A stretch of DNA of 64,000 nucleotides from an uncultured delta proteobacterium (GTDB taxonomy: Bacteria; Desulfobacterota; Binatia; UBA9968). Below are positions 25,972 to 29,542 of the stretch, piece by piece. Position numbers and translations under genes: made by a program. The number at the start of each line of letters is the position of its first letter. Within the stretch, counting starts at the first letter, position 1. The DNA lies in contig CAWDPO010000015.1 in assembly GCA_963804165.1 (NCBI GenBank), positions 32,001 to 96,000 of the forward strand, in the 5' to 3' direction. Below the pieces are notes generated by a model, which was not told where the DNA came from, did not search any database, and saw only the letters and a program-made list of their open reading frames with translations.

Positions 25972-26907
25972 ATGGAATTCGGACTCCATTTGCCCGCGTC
26001 CACGGCAAGGGTCAAGGCGGAGGATCTCATCCGCTTCGCCCAGCGAGCCGAGACTCTGGGATTTTACTGCATCACCGTCGCGGACCACGTCATCGTTCCG
26101 CGCGACATCTCGGTACCGTATCCCTATACCACCGACGGTAAATATCCCGGCACGGGATACCACCTGGAAACACTAATGACCATGGGGTTTCTCGCCGGCG
26201 CGACGCAGCGCATTCGCTTTATCACCAGTGTCATGATCCTGCCGTACCGCAATCCCGTTGTTACGGCGAAGATGCTCGCGAGCCTCGACGTATTGTCTGG
26301 CGGGCGCGTGATCGTCGGCGCGGGCGTCGGCTGGATGAAGGAAGAATTCGAGACGCTGCGCACCGAGCCGTTCGCGGAGCGCGGCAAAGTTACTGACGAG
26401 TATATCGCCGCGTTTCGAGAGCTGTGGACCAGCGACAATCCGAGTTATAGCGGCAAATATTGCAACTTCTCCAACATCGTCTTTCTGCCCAAACCTGTGC
26501 AGAAAACGATCCCGATCTGGATCGGCGGTCACAGTAAACAAGCGATCCGCCGCGCCGCGCGCCTGGGCGACGGCTGGCATCCCATTGGCGGCGTGCCGAC
26601 GATTCCTCTGGAGCCAGAGGACGTCGCCGCAGATCTGTCGATGCTGAGAGACTACGCCGAAAAAGCCGGGCGCGATCCTAAAACAATCCGTGTCGCTTTG
26701 AAGGGCTCGCTCTTCGACCGTGAAAAACAAATTACGCCGGGAAAACGACGGCGCTTTATCGGCAGCGCCGAAGAGATCGCGTCGGACATCCGCGACTATC
26801 GCGCTGTAGGTGTCGACACGATGATCTTCGACGTGCGCAGGCCGAGTGTCGCGGAAACATTGGAGAGGATGGAGTGGATGGCCAAGGACGTGTTTCCAAA
26901 AGTGTAG
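25972..26907 (+). CDS. LLM-class (probably F420-dependent) oxidoreductase
   Basis: VADHVIVP, VMILPYRNP, LDVLSGGR..GAGVGW..EEF, PIWIGG..A.RRAARLGDGW. Confidence 0.88.
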   Translation: MEFGLHLPASTARVKAEDLIRFAQRAETLGFYCITVADHVIVPRDISVPYPYTTDGKYPGTGYHLETLMTMGFLAGATQRIRFITSVMILPYRNPVVTAKMLASLDVLSGGRVIVGAGVGWMKEEFETLRTEPFAERGKVTDEYIAAFRELWTSDNPSYSGKYCNFSNIVFLPKPVQKTIPIWIGGHSKQAIRRAARLGDGWHPIGGVPTIPLEPEDVAADLSMLRDYAEKAGRDPKTIRVALKGSLFDREKQITPGKRRRFIGSAEEIASDIRDYRAVGVDTMIFDVRRPSVAETLERMEWMAKDVFPKV

Positions 26908-26986
26908 TGCGATTTTTCTAAAGGTCGCTGAATATCTCATGGTTTCCGATTTAAGTATCGGCCGTTGCCAAGAAGCTGCGGAATAA

Positions 26987-27053
26987 TGTCATCCTGAGGC
27001 AACGCCAAAGGATCTCGCCTTGGCGACTTACGCTTCGGACGAGATTCTTCACT
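26987..27053. repeat. GTCATCCTGAG...AGATTCTTC REP-like element (right arm truncated)
   Basis: Same family as the complete copies at 48008-48095 and 52432-52518. Confidence 0.7.
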
Positions 27054-27120
27054 ATGTCGCGCGACCGCCCTTCGGCTTGAGGCCAAGAGAACGTTCGTCA
27101 TGCCGACCCTTCGACGGGCT

Positions 27121-27356
27121 GCTGCTATGTGGATGTCAAGTCAATAACTCGCAAAGGCTCTTAAATTCTCCTATGACTTTTTCTCCCTACCCACCCAAGA
27201 GAGACTCGCTGCTATACGTGGCACGGCACTGGGCCGTCACACTGACTTGCGATGCGCCCTCTTTGGCACTAAGCCCCGGGATCTCTGTCTCAAGGGTCGA
27301 ACCTTCAGGAGTCTTGTTCTCCTGGTACTGGCCGTCGTCGAGTCGTTCCCTGGGGC
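27121..27356 (-). ncRNA. Candidate bridge/seek RNA of the IS110 element
   Basis: Stem-internal loop-hairpin containing GCTGCTAT (27208-27215, equal to element end 27121-27128) and GACTTG (27244-27249, reverse complement of CAAGTC at 28550-28555). Transcript boundaries are inferred. Confidence 0.6.
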
Positions 27357-28462
27357 ACAGTCTCCTCTTGGGTCAAAGGAGCCGATTGAACTTTTTCTCT
27401 CACTTCGTAAGGTCTTTGTTGCATCAACACCACCGCGGCCCGCACACACAGTTTATGGGCCACCGCCACAATGGCCACTCGAGGACCGAGATGACGCGGA
27501 TGTTTTTTCGCCACGGTGCGGAAGAACTCTCTCAACTCGCCGTCCTGGCGGATCGCCGACCAAGAGGCTTGAATGAGTTTGCTGCGCAGTCTTGGATCTC
27601 CGCTGTGAGTAATCGAGCCGCGAGTGGTTCTCTCTCCGGTGGAGCTCTCGGTGGGTACCAACCCCACAAAGGCCGGCAGCTCACGAATGTTATTGATCTG
27701 GCGCCAGTCCCCGATACGGGCCATCATCTGGCTGGCCACGATCCAGCCGATCCCAGGAAGCGTTTTCAGATACTCGATACACCGAGACAGTTCCGGGTCG
27801 TTGTGGCAAAAGCGGCGAATCTCACGGGTGACCTTAAGGACTTGCTTCTCCCCAAACTCCAGATTGTCCAGCAACTGATCGAGCTTAAAGCGCACCACCG
27901 AAGAGCAGGGAAGCTTTCTCAGCTTGGCTTTGACCAAAAACGACCACTGGCTGCCGGCCGGAGCCGGGGGAAACTCCAGCCCTTCCATCAGCAACAGCGA
28001 TTTGATGCGTTGCTTCATCGCCACCACCTCGCTGACCAGAGCGTCGCGCAGTTGAGTCAAGTGACGCAGCTCTCGATACAAGGTTGTGGGCACATGAATG
28101 CTCTTGAGCTGTCCGGCGCGCAGATTCTCTGCCAATCCCACGCTGTCGAGCCGATTGGTCTTCACTCGCTGTCCTGGCGCTTTGGGGATCATCGATGGAG
28201 AGGCGATCAAGCAAGGGTACCGTTGAGCGACCAACCCGTCATACAGTCCATAGCCCGTCGGTCCCGCCTCATAGGCAAAGGCTACTTTCTTATCGCCATA
28301 GTGCTTACGAACATGGTTTACAAGATACTCGACATTGTACGGCATGCGCATCGACTTCACAGATCCCTGATGATCGGTAAAGGTCACCGAAATGCTTTTC
28401 TTGTCCACATCGAGTCCGCCAAACACATCGTAATCGCGAGGGATGAAAGTTTCGATTCCCAT
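27305..28462 (-). CDS. IS110-family DEDD recombinase/transposase
   Basis: GLDVDK, AYEAGP, KTNRLDS RuvC-like motifs, TLPGIG, GLVPTESSTG (catalytic Ser region), AIVAVAHKL. RBS GGAGG. Confidence 0.93.
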   Translation of the reverse strand: MGIETFIPRDYDVFGGLDVDKKSISVTFTDHQGSVKSMRMPYNVEYLVNHVRKHYGDKKVAFAYEAGPTGYGLYDGLVAQRYPCLIASPSMIPKAPGQRVKTNRLDSVGLAENLRAGQLKSIHVPTTLYRELRHLTQLRDALVSEVVAMKQRIKSLLLMEGLEFPPAPAGSQWSFLVKAKLRKLPCSSVVRFKLDQLLDNLEFGEKQVLKVTREIRRFCHNDPELSRCIEYLKTLPGIGWIVASQMMARIGDWRQINNIRELPAFVGLVPTESSTGERTTRGSITHSGDPRLRSKLIQASWSAIRQDGELREFFRTVAKKHPRHLGPRVAIVAVAHKLCVRAAVVLMQQRPYEVREKVQSAPLTQEETVPQGTTRRRPVPGEQDS

Positions 28463-28690
28463 CGTAGTGCCTCCCTGGTCCAACGGCCGATAAGTTTCGG
28501 CCACTGTACTATCACGGAGCACTCGCGGTACAGCTCGACATCCCTCATACAAGTCTCAGGGTTAATTCCAACCGGCATCCAGGTTCGTTTTCAGTTCGAG
28601 TTCGAAACCCACCCGGCTTCGACAAGGCCAAAAAGAAAAGACCCGTCAGGACTGCTCCGCGCGCTAATTTCCCTCAAGTCGCAAGAGAGC

Positions 28691-29542
28691 CTATAGCCCC
28701 GCCTTGGGCTGGGGAATATCCGCCGGCCAGTTCTCGATGTAAACCGGCTCCGGCGGAAAGCCGAGGACATTGAGATAGAGATACTCCCGCCATGCGGGAA
28801 ATCTCCGCACGTTTTCCACCGGCACGTTGAAATATTTCCGCAGAAACTCGCGGCGCGGCGGATCGAAGACCGTGCGCGGGCGGCTGTTGAGCGCTTGCCT
28901 TTCGATCTCGCCGATACGCCGGCGAATCGGCGCCTCGCCCCAGATCTCGATCTGCTCCCACACGTAGTCGTGGAGTTTCTGCAAAATGGCGTCGTGATGG
29001 CTCCGCTCTTCGGCATGCACCACGCGTTCTTCGAAATCGAGCAGCTTCGGTGTTGTTATCTGGATGCTCTGGATGCTCGCTGCGGTGACGTGGCCGTAGG
29101 GCCACAAGTTGCCGGAAAAAATGTAGCTCAAAAAATCGCGCTTCATGATCTGGTGGTGCTCGACGCGCGGTGTCAGACCGTATTGCCGCTCAAACTCAGG
29201 GTCGGGTTTGGAGTGATCGCGGCTTGGGTCGATGGCATTGGCTTGGCGGATGTACCCCCAGCCGTGGCCGGCCTCGGTGCCGGCATGTTCGGCGAGAAAA
29301 TAACGCCATTCGCAGTCCATTTCGAAGTGCGCCATGGCGTAACACGCCGTGCCGACCGTGACTTCGAGCTCGTCGCGGCCGCGGTGCGCCAGCCAGCGGG
29401 CCAAACGTTCGCGCTCCTCGTCGTCCTTAGGCGGCCGCTTGATATTGTCGCGACTTTTGCGCAGTGCCTCGATCTCCGCGCCGATCGGATTGTCCTCACT
29501 GTACGTGATTTTTTTCCCGACTCCCCTGATATCTTCTGCCAT
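28691..29542 (-). CDS. Uncharacterised protein with ferritin-like diiron motifs
   Basis: Helical sequence with RDELE...EAGH and EERSH (two ExxH motifs). Family not recognised. Confidence 0.6.
   Translation of the reverse strand: MAEDIRGVGKKITYSEDNPIGAEIEALRKSRDNIKRPPKDDEERERLARWLAHRGRDELEVTVGTACYAMAHFEMDCEWRYFLAEHAGTEAGHGWGYIRQANAIDPSRDHSKPDPEFERQYGLTPRVEHHQIMKRDFLSYIFSGNLWPYGHVTAASIQSIQITTPKLLDFEERVVHAEERSHHDAILQKLHDYVWEQIEIWGEAPIRRRIGEIERQALNSRPRTVFDPPRREFLRKYFNVPVENVRRFPAWREYLYLNVLGFPPEPVYIENWPADIPQPKAGL

What the first reader, a model, noticed from the sequence alone, without database searches (positions are those of the whole stretch)
27091..28600. IS110/IS1111-type RNA-guided recombinase element in a REP, with donor-matching guide loops visible in its 3' non-coding region
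Seen in sequence: removing 27121-28556 leaves CCCTTCGACGGG-CT-CAGGG, with a CT dinucleotide at both junctions. The predicted circle junction (donor) reads CATACAAGT-CT-GCTGCTATG. Downstream of the recombinase, an outer stem (CCAAGAGAG at about 27195 pairing with CTCTTTGG at about 27259) encloses GCTGCTAT (27208-27215), a hairpin (ACGGC/GCCGT) and GACTTG (27244-27249). These two short segments match opposite strands of the donor, one on each side of the core. Established knowledge: IS110 bridge RNAs (IS621) and IS1111 seekRNAs use internal loops of this kind; IS621 uses a CT core and targets REPs; IS1111-group elements have sub-terminal inverted repeats and a downstream non-coding region. Inference: this is a complete, potentially reprogrammable bridge-recombinase system in a poorly studied lineage.
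Basis: partly seen in the sequence, partly recalled or inferred. Interest (0 to 1): 0.85.

Follow-up and report, generated by a model that had tools for sequence, protein, structure and literature searches.

The report
Soil-bacterium jumping gene with guide RNA
This is an intact insertion sequence of the IS110/IS1111 kind that carries its own bridge (seek) RNA to choose where it inserts; the mechanism has been known since 2024, so this is a well-documented new member and not a new kind of system.

Summary
Window 27121/27124-28554 is a 1.43-kb IS110-family element on the minus strand. It sits at a CT core in a REP-like repeat and has four copies in the genome that differ at 2-9 of 1437 positions, plus uninterrupted paralogous sites. 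I add three things:
- handshake positions that follow the IS621 rule (71 of 75);
- a promoter split across the two ends, TTGACA, 17 nt, TATGAG/T.

I correct three things:
The conserved closing stem (91%) pairs 27193-27206 with 27359-27373, which lies inside the transposase ORF.
- The RNA therefore spans about 27193-27373 and overlaps the last 23 codons.
- The left boundary is ambiguous by one GCT.

The architecture is IS1111-like: short LE, long RE, sub-terminal inverted repeats, RNA downstream. Oddities are Asn at the third DEDD position and a sliding left-target-guide register. RNA expression and protein binding are untested. Verdict: a new member of a known kind, of moderate interest.

The parts
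27107..27120 (.). Left half of the REP-like target (CCCTTCGACGGG) plus one copy of the CT core (27119-27120).
   Evidence: The same motif is uninterrupted on C25. Motif census.
27121..27123 (.). Ambiguous GCT. It is either the last 3 nt of this copy's right end or part of the target.
   Evidence: Present in the window and L002 copies. Absent in L003, L004 and every related locus with this junction recovered. Guide register argues for 'element'; promoter spacing and the C17 paralogue argue for 'target'.
27124..27140 (-). Right-end (RE) terminus, reading ...CTTGACATCCACATAGC on the minus strand. It holds the sub-terminal inverted repeat (27131-27140) and the -35 hexamer TTGACA (27134-27139).
   Evidence: 99.1% mean pairwise identity in 13 elements. 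Inverted repeat I10. Promoter spacing.
27141..27192 (-). Poorly conserved spacer between the RNA and the RE terminus.
   Evidence: 64.6% mean pairwise identity.
27193..27373 (-). Bridge/seek RNA gene, about 181 nt. A closing stem P1 encloses a target-binding arm and a donor-binding loop.
   Evidence: Consensus fold. Pair counts on 67 distinct sequences. 85-88% identity against 75% in the CDS. G-U pairs fit the minus-strand transcript only.
27359..27373 (-). P1, 5' strand (ACCCAAGAGGAGACU), inside the transposase ORF.
   Evidence: Pairs with 27193-27206. Helix paired in 90.8% of cells. Exact 9-nt inverted repeat I11.
27330..27337 (-). Left target guide (RNA CGACGGCC) on the 5' strand of the target-binding loop.
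   Evidence: Eight positions are complementary to the flank next to the RE in 49-62 of 77 unique RNA/target pairs. 0 of 20,000 shuffles as good.
27301..27326 (-). P3 hairpin of the target-binding arm. It contains the transposase stop codon (27305-27307).
   Evidence: One A-U to G-C compensatory change in 4 sequences.
27287..27296 (-). Right target guide plus handshake. In RNA order: CCC (27294-27296), unpaired U (27293), UGAG (27289-27292, covering the core and 2 nt), then AC (27287-27288), which matches the first two LE bases.
   Evidence: UGAG is identical to the flank in 70-74 of 74-75 pairs. The triplet after a 1-nt skip gives 162 of 222 against 129 shuffled, 0 of 20,000.
27244..27249 (-). 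Left donor guide (RNA CAAGUC): 5 nt of the LE terminus plus the C of the core.
   Evidence: Complementary to LE positions 1-5 in 28, 31, 21, 26 (30 with G-U) and 29 of 31 unique pairs.
27218..27242 (-).
   Evidence: 99.8% of cells paired in 67 sequences.
27208..27215 (-). Right donor guide AUAGC (27211-27215), core-pairing AG (27209-27210) and handshake C (27208).
   Evidence: AUAGC-AG present in 14 of 15 distinct guide/RE pairs. The handshake base equals the first target base after the core in 71 of 75 pairs, with three states C/G/U.
27305..28462 (-). Transposase/recombinase gene, 385 aa from the ATG at 28462. RBS GGGAGG at 28470-28475.
   Evidence: Of the 120 related protein clusters listed, at 85-93% identity, most are 385 aa.
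28463..28554 (-). Left end (LE), 92 nt. It holds the terminus ACTTG..., the -10-like TATGAG (28544-28549), the sub-terminal inverted repeat (28534-28543) and a possible anti-Shine-Dalgarno hairpin (28516-28524 with 28467-28474).
28555..28565 (.). Second copy of the CT core (28555-28556) and the right half of the target (CAGGGTTAA).

Best explanation
An active IS110-family insertion sequence with IS1111-type layout.

Proposed cycle (inferred by analogy with IS621 and ISEc11):
1. The element excises as a circle.
2. Joining the ends builds a sigma-70 promoter: TTGACA in the RE, 17 nt, TATGAG in the LE.
3. That promoter transcribes the recombinase gene and, continuing through its 3' end, an RNA of about 181 nt (window 27373 to 27193, minus strand).
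4. The RNA folds with one closing stem around two guide-bearing loops.

Guide layout, with the target and donor written so that the core reads CT:
[quoted passage not shown] - Donor loop: does the same with the joined ends (CAAGU+C and AUAGC+AG).
- One or two bases 3' of each 3' guide match the other DNA. These are handshake positions, which would favour strand exchange.

The recombinase then inserts the circle at the CT of a REP-like repeat without a duplication.

Shown here: the anatomy, the copies, the empty sites, the conservation and the covariation.
Inferred by analogy: transcription, RNA-protein binding and the chemistry.
For: Family: PF01548 + PF02371 and NF033542 at 202.5 bits against a cut-off of 140.

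Mobility: four copies that differ at 2-9 of 1437 positions lie at different sites. Uninterrupted target paralogues exist.

Relatives: 22 related loci from genome contigs and 80 from metagenome contigs (67-95% aa identity over complete matches) show the same terminal motifs in every case where an end was recovered.

Conservation: the RNA region is more conserved than the CDS (0.85-0.88 against 0.755). Third codon positions are 0.84 identical in the 69-nt overlap against 0.56 in the CDS proper.

Structure: the consensus fold has 47 pairs. Pairing holds in 95% of cells on 67 distinct sequences against 28-53% when slid. G-U pairs fit only the minus-strand transcript.

Guides:
- Left target guide: complementary in 49-62 of 77 pairs at each of 8 positions. 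0 of 20,000 shuffles match it (16 pairs).
- Right target guide: 70-74 of 74-75 for UGAG. The 3-nt extension gives 162 of 222 against 129, 0 of 20,000. A clade targeting ...CAGAG has AGAG in the guide.
- Donor-loop handshake base: equals the first target base after the core in 71 of 75 pairs (C 53, G 14, U 4). This is the rule described for IS621 (passages).

Promoter: TTGACA, 17 nt, TATGAT/G/A in 81 of 81 elements with both ends, counting the RE as ending in ...ATAGC. No sigma-70-like site was found inside the linear element.

Guide order: the top-strand match lies 5' of the bottom-strand match, as reported for IS1111-family seekRNAs (section read).
Against: - No direct evidence that the RNA is made or bound. 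RNA-library contigs of relatives cover the region only at low depth, and DNA carry-over is not excluded.
- The stems are almost invariant. Only 3 of 42 pairs show a change on both sides, and 49 of 500 shuffles reach that. The fold rests on conservation more than on compensatory change.
- No Rfam family matches.
- The donor guides are nearly invariant, so the donor loop is supported mainly by the handshake base and one covarying position. LE position 3 is mismatched (A opposite C) in 8 of 31 pairs.
- The 5' guides pair with only one of the two core bases (0 of 77 at the other). This differs from IS621, where all four guides include the core.
- Left-target-guide register: 62 of 77 pairs are standard and 15 fit better when slid by -2 to +3. 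Those 15 include all four copies when every right end is counted as ending in ...ATAGC. Only the window copy returns to the standard register (7 of 8), and only if its extra GCT is counted as element.
- The third DEDD residue is Asn.
- With this copy's extra GCT counted as element, the promoter spacer would be 20 nt.
Confidence: 0.88

Rival explanations
1. SeekRNA-only reading. Only the target-binding arm (the ~85-nt P2-enclosed part, 27273-27356) is the working RNA, as with the 82-96-nt seekRNAs of ISEc11, ISPa11 and ISKpn4. The element ends are recognised through the target-derived flanks and the sub-terminal inverted repeats, and the 'donor loop' is scaffold or precursor.
For: - The short seekRNA was reported sufficient for ISEc11 movement, and target-derived flanks were needed for circle formation (sections and passages read).
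- The P2-enclosed arm here is of that size.
- The donor guides barely vary, so they cannot be tested by covariation.
Against: - The donor-loop 3' strand carries a base that tracks the target in 71 of 75 pairs with three states. That is hard to explain unless this loop meets DNA during strand exchange.
- CAAGU-C and AUAGC-AG match the two ends exactly at the core.
- LE position 4 covaries with the guide (26 complementary, 30 with G-U, of 31).
- The donor-loop part is as conserved as the target arm.
Confidence: 0.08
2. The conserved 3' block is not an RNA. It reflects a conserved C-terminal peptide plus protein-binding DNA sites, and the matches to the ends and flanks are by-products of repeated insertion into one repeat family.
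For: - The ORF runs 69 nt into the block.
- Most of the 120 listed clusters keep a 385-aa ORF.
- The stems show little compensatory change.
Against: - Conservation continues 112 nt beyond the stop codon at 0.877.
- Third codon positions are frozen in the overlap (0.84 against 0.56).
- Indels in the hairpin loop break the frame in some relatives (for example L004 and L009) without loss of the block.
- Guide segments change together with the flanks in many lineages.
Confidence: 0.02
3. The copy in the window is a dead or crippled relic: Asn in the catalytic tetrad and a 3-nt longer right end that spoils the junction promoter.
For: - KTN in place of KTD.
- The extra GCT would give a 20-nt spacer.
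- The -10 is TATGAG, not TATGAT.
Against: - All 20 clade proteins aligned share the Asn, as do 2 of 5 distant plasmid homologues in which the motif could be read (Sinorhizobium, Novosphingobium). It is therefore a lineage trait.
- The four copies are nearly identical and lie at different sites. The ORF is intact in three of the four copies, including the window's. L004 has a 1-nt insertion near the ORF's 3' end that alters and lengthens the tail.
- Two copies with the longer end sit at unrelated sites.
Confidence: 0.05

Closest known systems
IS1111-group elements with a downstream seekRNA / bridge RNA (ISEc11, ISPa11, ISKpn4; Siddiquee 2024; Durrant 2024 Fig. 6)
   Same: - Short LE, long RE and sub-terminal inverted repeats.
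- Guide RNA 3' of the recombinase gene.
- Top-strand match 5' of the bottom-strand match.
- Junction promoter.
- GL-P----(S/T)G motif (here GLVPTESSTG).
- A REP as target, as for ISPa11.
   Different: - Only 24.9% aa identity to IS5075, the one named IS1111-group protein I could fetch.
- ORF of 385 aa against 330-350 reported.
- The RNA starts 69 nt inside the ORF.
- Asn at the third DEDD position.
- Placement in the IS1111 clade by phylogeny was not resolved.
- I could not see the published figures or supplements that show IS1111 RNA folds.
IS621 bridge RNA system (IS110 group; Durrant 2024, Hiraizumi 2024)
   Same: - Two loops, each with guides to both strands.
- CT core.
- Target loop 5' of donor loop.
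- Handshake bases 3' of the RTG and RDG that match the non-cognate DNA.
- REP-type targets.
- Circle-junction promoter.
   Different: - The RNA lies downstream, not in the LE.
- One closing stem encloses both loops here.
- The 5' guides reach only the C of the core.
- The right target guide has a skipped base.
- The protein is very distant (phmmer E 9e-7 to 8WT6, C-terminal domain only).
ISPpu9 / ISPpu10 of Pseudomonas putida (IS110 family in REPs)
   Same: They insert into REP sequences. ISPpu9 has a small RNA gene downstream of the transposase (abstract start seen in the search listing).
   Different: I read only listing abstracts and made no sequence comparison. No orphan copies of the RNA gene were found in this genome, unlike the extra ssr9 copies reported.

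Membership tests
IS110 family (DEDD recombinase IS) | N-terminal DEDD/RuvC-like domain (PF01548) and C-terminal PF02371 domain. | tested here: met
   PF01548 E 2.2e-14 and PF02371 E 1.3e-20, both above their cut-offs. NF033542 equivalog at 202.5 bits against 140.
IS110 family (DEDD recombinase IS) | Four acidic catalytic residues D-E-D-D. | tested here: inconclusive
   By sequence alignment the tetrad reads D (GLD), E (YEAGPTGY), N (KTN) and D (RLD). The Asn is in all 20 clade proteins aligned and in 2 of 5 distant plasmid homologues in which the motif could be read. IS5075, ISCro4 and the genome's other IS110 have Asp. No structure was compared. That IS621's catalytic residues are D11, E60, D102 and D105 comes from passages.
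IS110 family (DEDD recombinase IS) | Site-specific insertion at a short core without target duplication, via a circle. | tested here: met
   CT at both junctions and single in uninterrupted paralogous sites. The circle itself was not observed.
IS1111 group | Sub-terminal inverted repeats of 7-17 bp. | tested here: met
   10 nt at 90% (27131-27140 / 28534-28543), conserved in relatives. Inverted repeats of this size are common by chance in 1.5 kb (58 pairs), so the evidence is position and conservation.
IS1111 group | Long RE and short LE, with the guide RNA downstream of the recombinase gene. | tested here: met
   LE is 92 nt. Stop codon to RE end is 181-184 nt. The conserved RNA block lies at 27193-27373.
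IS1111 group | GL-P----S(t)G motif, and top-strand match 5' of bottom-strand match in the RNA. | tested here: met
   GLVPTESSTG. Order of guides. Criteria come from sections read.
IS1111 group | Recombinase clusters with the IS1111 clade; length 330-350 aa. | tested here: inconclusive
   12-row tree with long branches and only two named references (IS5075, ISEc21). BLASTP gives 70 bits to IS5075 and 32 bits to ISEc21. The ORF is 385 aa, and the family profile ends at residue 350.
Bridge RNA / seekRNA | Loop segments complementary to both strands of target and donor that covary with them. | tested here: met
   Target loop. Donor loop: exact matches, one covarying position and the handshake base.
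Bridge RNA / seekRNA | The RNA is transcribed and binds the recombinase. | not testable with these tools
   Only contigs from RNA libraries of relatives were available, at low depth.
REP (repetitive extragenic palindrome) as target | Short, many-copy, intergenic, imperfectly palindromic repeat. | tested here: inconclusive
   109 motif copies with consensus ...CCTTCGAC-N3-GCTCAGGACGAGCGGA. The window site is intergenic, between a luciferase-like monooxygenase gene and an unassigned ORF. Some copies show an inverted partner. The intergenic location of the other copies was not checked.

The most novel reading that the evidence does not exclude
This soil-wide clade may be a distinct sub-type of bridge recombinase system with four departures from IS621:
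- a D-E-N-D active site;
- a bridge RNA whose closing stem and left target guide are encoded inside the recombinase ORF, so that translation to the stop codon in the P3 hairpin and RNA folding are mutually exclusive on one transcript, a possible built-in switch between making protein and making guide;
- 5' guides that read only one core base;
- a left target guide that tolerates sliding by 1-3 nt relative to the cut site, which lets one RNA use REP variants with different spacers.
Probability: 0.25. Interest if true: 0.5.

Novelty: new member of a known kind. Interest (0 to 1): 0.35.

Why it matters
The element shows the bridge/seek RNA logic working in uncultured soil lineages. Related loci come from MAGs labelled Binatia, Acidobacteriota, Nitrospira and Syntrophobacteraceae.

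It also gives a natural 're-programming' series. There are at least 10 distinct left-target-guide variants among the first 16 unique guide/target pairs, and more among the 77 pairs. Each is matched to its own REP variant, and the handshake base follows suit.

That is useful comparative material for rules on guide length, register tolerance and handshake design in the less-studied IS1111-type systems. It does not change what is known about the mechanism.

Tried and rejected
Folding.
- Single-sequence folds are not better than shuffles: z -1.29 for 293 nt and z +0.59 for the 184-nt non-coding part alone. The shorter stretch lacks the 5' half of the RNA. Single-sequence energy therefore gave no support.

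RNA family search.
- Rfam at E <= 1 on 26500-29200 gave 0 matches.

Right target guide.
- In the first 17-20 loci, covariation beyond UGAG was not significant in any register (p 0.16 at best). It became significant only with the metagenome loci.

Promoters and terminators.
- The scan of the linear element found 0 promoter-like sites. It found 2 terminator-like sites, both inside the CDS, which is no more than the shuffles give.

Sequencing runs.
- Six RNA runs held 8-15% of the sampled words.
- I laid four of them, from four studies. They gave 19 listed contig pieces of relatives at 90-99% likeness, scattered over the CDS and the RNA region at depth 2-7. These are contigs, not reads, and DNA carry-over is not excluded.
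- This shows no transcript ends and no proof of transcription. Parts without cover mean nothing.
- One contig's loose end stops at 27121, which agrees with the boundary region.

Phylogenetic placement.
- The IS1111-versus-IS110 question was unresolved (12 rows, 2 of 9 inner branches well supported). My trimming also cut the N-terminus of the ISEc21 row.

Other attempts.
- The ISEc11 reference locus was not in the E. coli collection.
- The anti-Shine-Dalgarno hairpin gave a mixed tally: 31 concordant of one type, 3 of a second type, 5 discordant and 1 other, of 40. My pattern missed a third type.
- No orphan RNA-gene copies were found in the own genome.
- I did not search the papers specifically for this clade, so I make no claim that it is absent from print. 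ISfinder was not available.
- Supplements and figures of the four papers read could not be seen. They may already show IS1111-type folds like this one.
Full report
WHAT IS THERE.

The minus strand of window 27305-28462 encodes a 385-aa protein (ATG at 28462, RBS GGGAGG 7 nt upstream). It has the two Pfam domains of IS110-family recombinases, PF01548 and PF02371. It reaches NCBI's equivalog model 'IS110 family RNA-guided transposase' at 202.5 bits against a cut-off of 140.

The genome that holds the window (7.5 Mb, 46 contigs, 55.8% G+C) has four copies of the element. Pairs of copies differ at 2-9 of 1437 aligned positions, and the copies sit at four different sites.

Aligning the copies and their flanks gives these ends. 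On the window's + strand the element follows ...CCTTCGACG(N2-4)G-CT and ends ...CATACAAGT-CT, followed by CAGRG. Uninterrupted versions of three of these sites, or of their paralogues, exist in the same genome:
- CCTTCGACGGGCTCAGGG on C25;
- CCTTCGACGACGCTCAGAG on C12;
- CCTTCGACGGTGCTCAGGG on C34 and C45.

The target motif is a repeat. A relaxed pattern finds 109 copies with the consensus ...GGAGTCCTTCGAC-N3-GCTCAGGACGAGCGGA. The window's site is intergenic, between a luciferase-like monooxygenase gene and an ORF without a Pfam match.

Every coordinate given is right. The 8-mer GCTGCTAT by itself is not rare enough to prove anything: 3 in the window against 1.14 expected, and 11 of 100 shuffles reach 3. 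The test therefore had to be comparative.

RELATIVES.

One scan of species genomes gave 22 loci with 67-93% aa identity over complete matches; one short fragment reached only 51%. The MAGs were labelled Binatia, Syntrophobacteraceae, Acidobacteriota, Nitrospira and 'delta proteobacterium'. One scan of metagenome contigs gave 80 more, at 77-95%.

DNA alignment runs from end to end of the element and stops at the same terminal motifs. A protein search lists 120 clusters at 85-93% identity, most of them 385 aa. Fourteen DNA runs labelled soil, sediment or metagenome, or with a coded organism name, hold 43-75% of the element's sampled words.

THE RNA.

The most conserved part of the element after the extreme RE terminus is a block from 27373 to 27193. 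Mean pairwise identities in 13 diverse elements are:

| Region | Identity |
|---|---|
| Block, part inside the ORF | 0.847 |
| Block, part beyond the stop codon | 0.877 |
| CDS | 0.755 |
| LE and the spacer after the block | 0.65 |

Third codon positions are 0.84 identical in the overlap against 0.56 in the rest of the CDS.

RNAalifold on 17 sequences gives a closing stem P1 that encloses four further elements:
- an arm made of stem P2, a large internal loop and hairpin P3;
- a small hairpin P4;
- a second loop;
- hairpin P5.

On 67 distinct sequences my version of this fold is paired in 95.0% of cells, against 28-53% when the partners are slid. P1 alone is paired in 90.8%. G-U pairs (for example 37 G-U and 26 A-U at one P3 pair, and 64 U-G at one P4 pair) fit only a transcript of the minus strand.

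It is paired in only 57.9% of cells, and its two A-U pairs exist in 2 and 4 of 67 sequences.

The stems hardly vary. Only 3 of 42 pairs change on both sides, and 49 of 500 shuffles do as well, so the fold is supported by conservation and not by compensatory change. Single-sequence folding energies are unremarkable. Rfam has no match.

THE GUIDES.

I extracted the four loop strands, both flanks and both ends from 102 element copies and counted on unique RNA/DNA pairs. The element is written in the transposase orientation, so the core reads AG.

1. 5' strand of the first loop (RNA CGACGA-NNNN-C/G-AG).
   - Eight consecutive positions are complementary to the flank next to the RE in 62, 60, 49, 60, 60, 58, 61 and 60 of 77 pairs.
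   - The first of them pairs with the G of the core. The next RNA base is never complementary to the other core base (0 of 77).
   - Shuffling targets among guides never reached the observed match (0 of 20,000; 16 pairs).

2. 3' strand of the first loop.
   - It reads ...YCC-U-UGAG-AC.
   - UGAG is identical to the last four bases of the left flank including the core (73/74, 74/75, 70/75, 74/75).
   - A clade that inserts after ...CAGAG has AGAG.
   - After one skipped base, three more bases match: 162 of 222 against 129 for shuffles, 0 of 20,000. Without the skip the result is 79 of 222, and 495 of 20,000 shuffles reach it.
   - The AC that follows equals the first two bases of the LE (38 of 39 and 31 of 39).

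   - RNA CAAGU-C is complementary to LE positions 1-5 in 28, 31, 21, 26 (30 with G-U) and 29 of 31 pairs.
   - Position 4 covaries. Position 3 is A opposite C in 8.

   - AUAGC-AG matches the RE end plus the core in 14 of 15 distinct combinations.
   - The next base equals the first target base after the core in 71 of 75 pairs (C/C 53, G/G 14, U/T 4).

Points 2 and 4 are what Hiraizumi et al. call handshake guides. These are bases 3' of the RTG and RDG that pair with the non-cognate DNA after strand exchange (passages read).

[quoted passage not shown] This holds if the DNA is written so that the core reads CT, which is the window's + strand.

In the transposase orientation the top-strand match comes first. 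Siddiquee et al. report that order for IS1111-family seekRNAs (section read).

OTHER ANATOMY.

The RE ends ...CTTGACATCCACATAGC and the LE begins ACTTGTATGAG. Their sub-terminal inverted repeat is 10 nt at 90%.

If the ends are joined through one core, TTGACA and TATGAG (TATGAT in 63, TATGAG in 17 and TATGAA in 1 of 81 elements) are 17 nt apart. No sigma-70-like site was found in the linear element.

Such a junction promoter is described for both families. It is presumed to transcribe the transposase gene and the non-coding region (passages).

The transposase stop codon lies in the 3' strand of hairpin P3, and the RNA starts 69 nt (23 codons) inside the ORF.

WHAT DOES NOT FIT NEATLY.

(a) Boundary.
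- The window and L002 copies have GCTGCTGCTATG at the junction, where L003, L004 and every related locus with this junction recovered have GCTGCTATG.
- For 'the extra GCT is element': paralogues of L002's site lack it, and the window's left target guide then fits in the standard register (7 of 8).
- For 'the extra GCT is target': a paralogue of the window's site on C17 has GCTGCT, and the promoter spacer stays at 17.
- I leave the boundary as 27121 or 27124.

(b) Register.
- 62 of 77 guide/target pairs fit best in the standard register, 12 at +1 (mostly RNAs with GAG, not CAG, after the guide), 2 at -2 and 1 at +3.
- With every right end counted as ending in ...ATAGC, none of this genome's four copies fits best in the standard register. 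Only the window copy does if its extra GCT is counted as element.
- The REP spacer length varies from 1 to 6. The left guide therefore seems to follow the CGTCG block and not a fixed distance to the cut.

(c) Active site.
- The recombinase reads KTNRLD where relatives read K(T/S/N)DxxD.
- All 20 clade proteins aligned share the Asn, and so do the Sinorhizobium and Novosphingobium plasmid homologues.
- IS5075, the Burkholderia and Bacillus homologues, ISCro4 and the genome's second IS110-family element have Asp.
- By recall, not from a call, RuvC-like nucleases such as Cas9 carry His at the corresponding position, so variation there has precedent.

(d) Expression.
- Contigs from four metatranscriptome runs of four studies cover parts of the CDS and of the RNA block at 90-99% likeness and depth 2-7.
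- This does not show transcription.

CLASSIFICATION AND NOVELTY.

The element meets the architectural criteria of the IS1111 group. However, it is only 24.9% identical to IS5075 and at most 36% to any plasmid-borne homologue. A small tree did not resolve its placement.

Bridge RNAs were predicted in 93.0% of IS1111-group elements, in the RE, and seekRNAs were shown for four of them. The kind is therefore known. This is a new, abundant, well-supported member with some variant details.

Papers:
- PMC11187229: I read the outline, sections 6, 8, 9 and 13, and passages.
- PMC11208160, PMC11208158 and PMC13604230: passages only.
- The ISPpu9, ISPpu10 and 'half-match' papers: only the listing lines.
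- Figures and supplements were not available.

Noticed in passing
G000:C17:396156-396914 and at least 7 other places (not in the window): The genome holds a second, unrelated IS110-family element. It is about 25% aa identical to this one and has the canonical KSDKLDA motif.
   Followed up: no
window 27090-27120 and 28557-28600; paralogues on C17, C42, C20, C25: The REP-like unit that was hit sits inside the loop of another repeat (GTTCGTCATGCCGG ... CCGGCATCCAGGTTCG). Copies on C20 and C25 have a plain 6-nt loop there. Copies on C17, C42 and the window carry the CCCTTCGAC..GCTCAGGG unit, so one repeat is nested in another.
   Followed up: partly
window 28149-28166 (codons of KTNRLD): Asn stands at the third position of the DEDD tetrad in all 20 clade proteins aligned and in 2 of 5 distant plasmid homologues in which the motif could be read.
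   Followed up: partly
window 28516-28524 with 28467-28474: A possible anti-Shine-Dalgarno hairpin in the 5' UTR (GAGUGCUCC with GGAGGCAC). The tally in 40 distinct UTRs is 31 of this type, 3 of a compensated type (GUCCUC with GGAGGGAC), 5 discordant and 1 other.
   Followed up: partly
flanks of L009-L110, positions +1 and +4 after the core: In the targets, the first base after the core and the base three further on are complementary to each other in about 95% of sites. One RNA guide position therefore looks 'identical' to a target base it does not pair with. Unexplained.
   Followed up: no
window 26985-27020: Further short repeats of the GTCATCCTGAGG...AAGGATCTCG type lie just left of the insertion site. 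Similar units are seen beside other copies.
   Followed up: no
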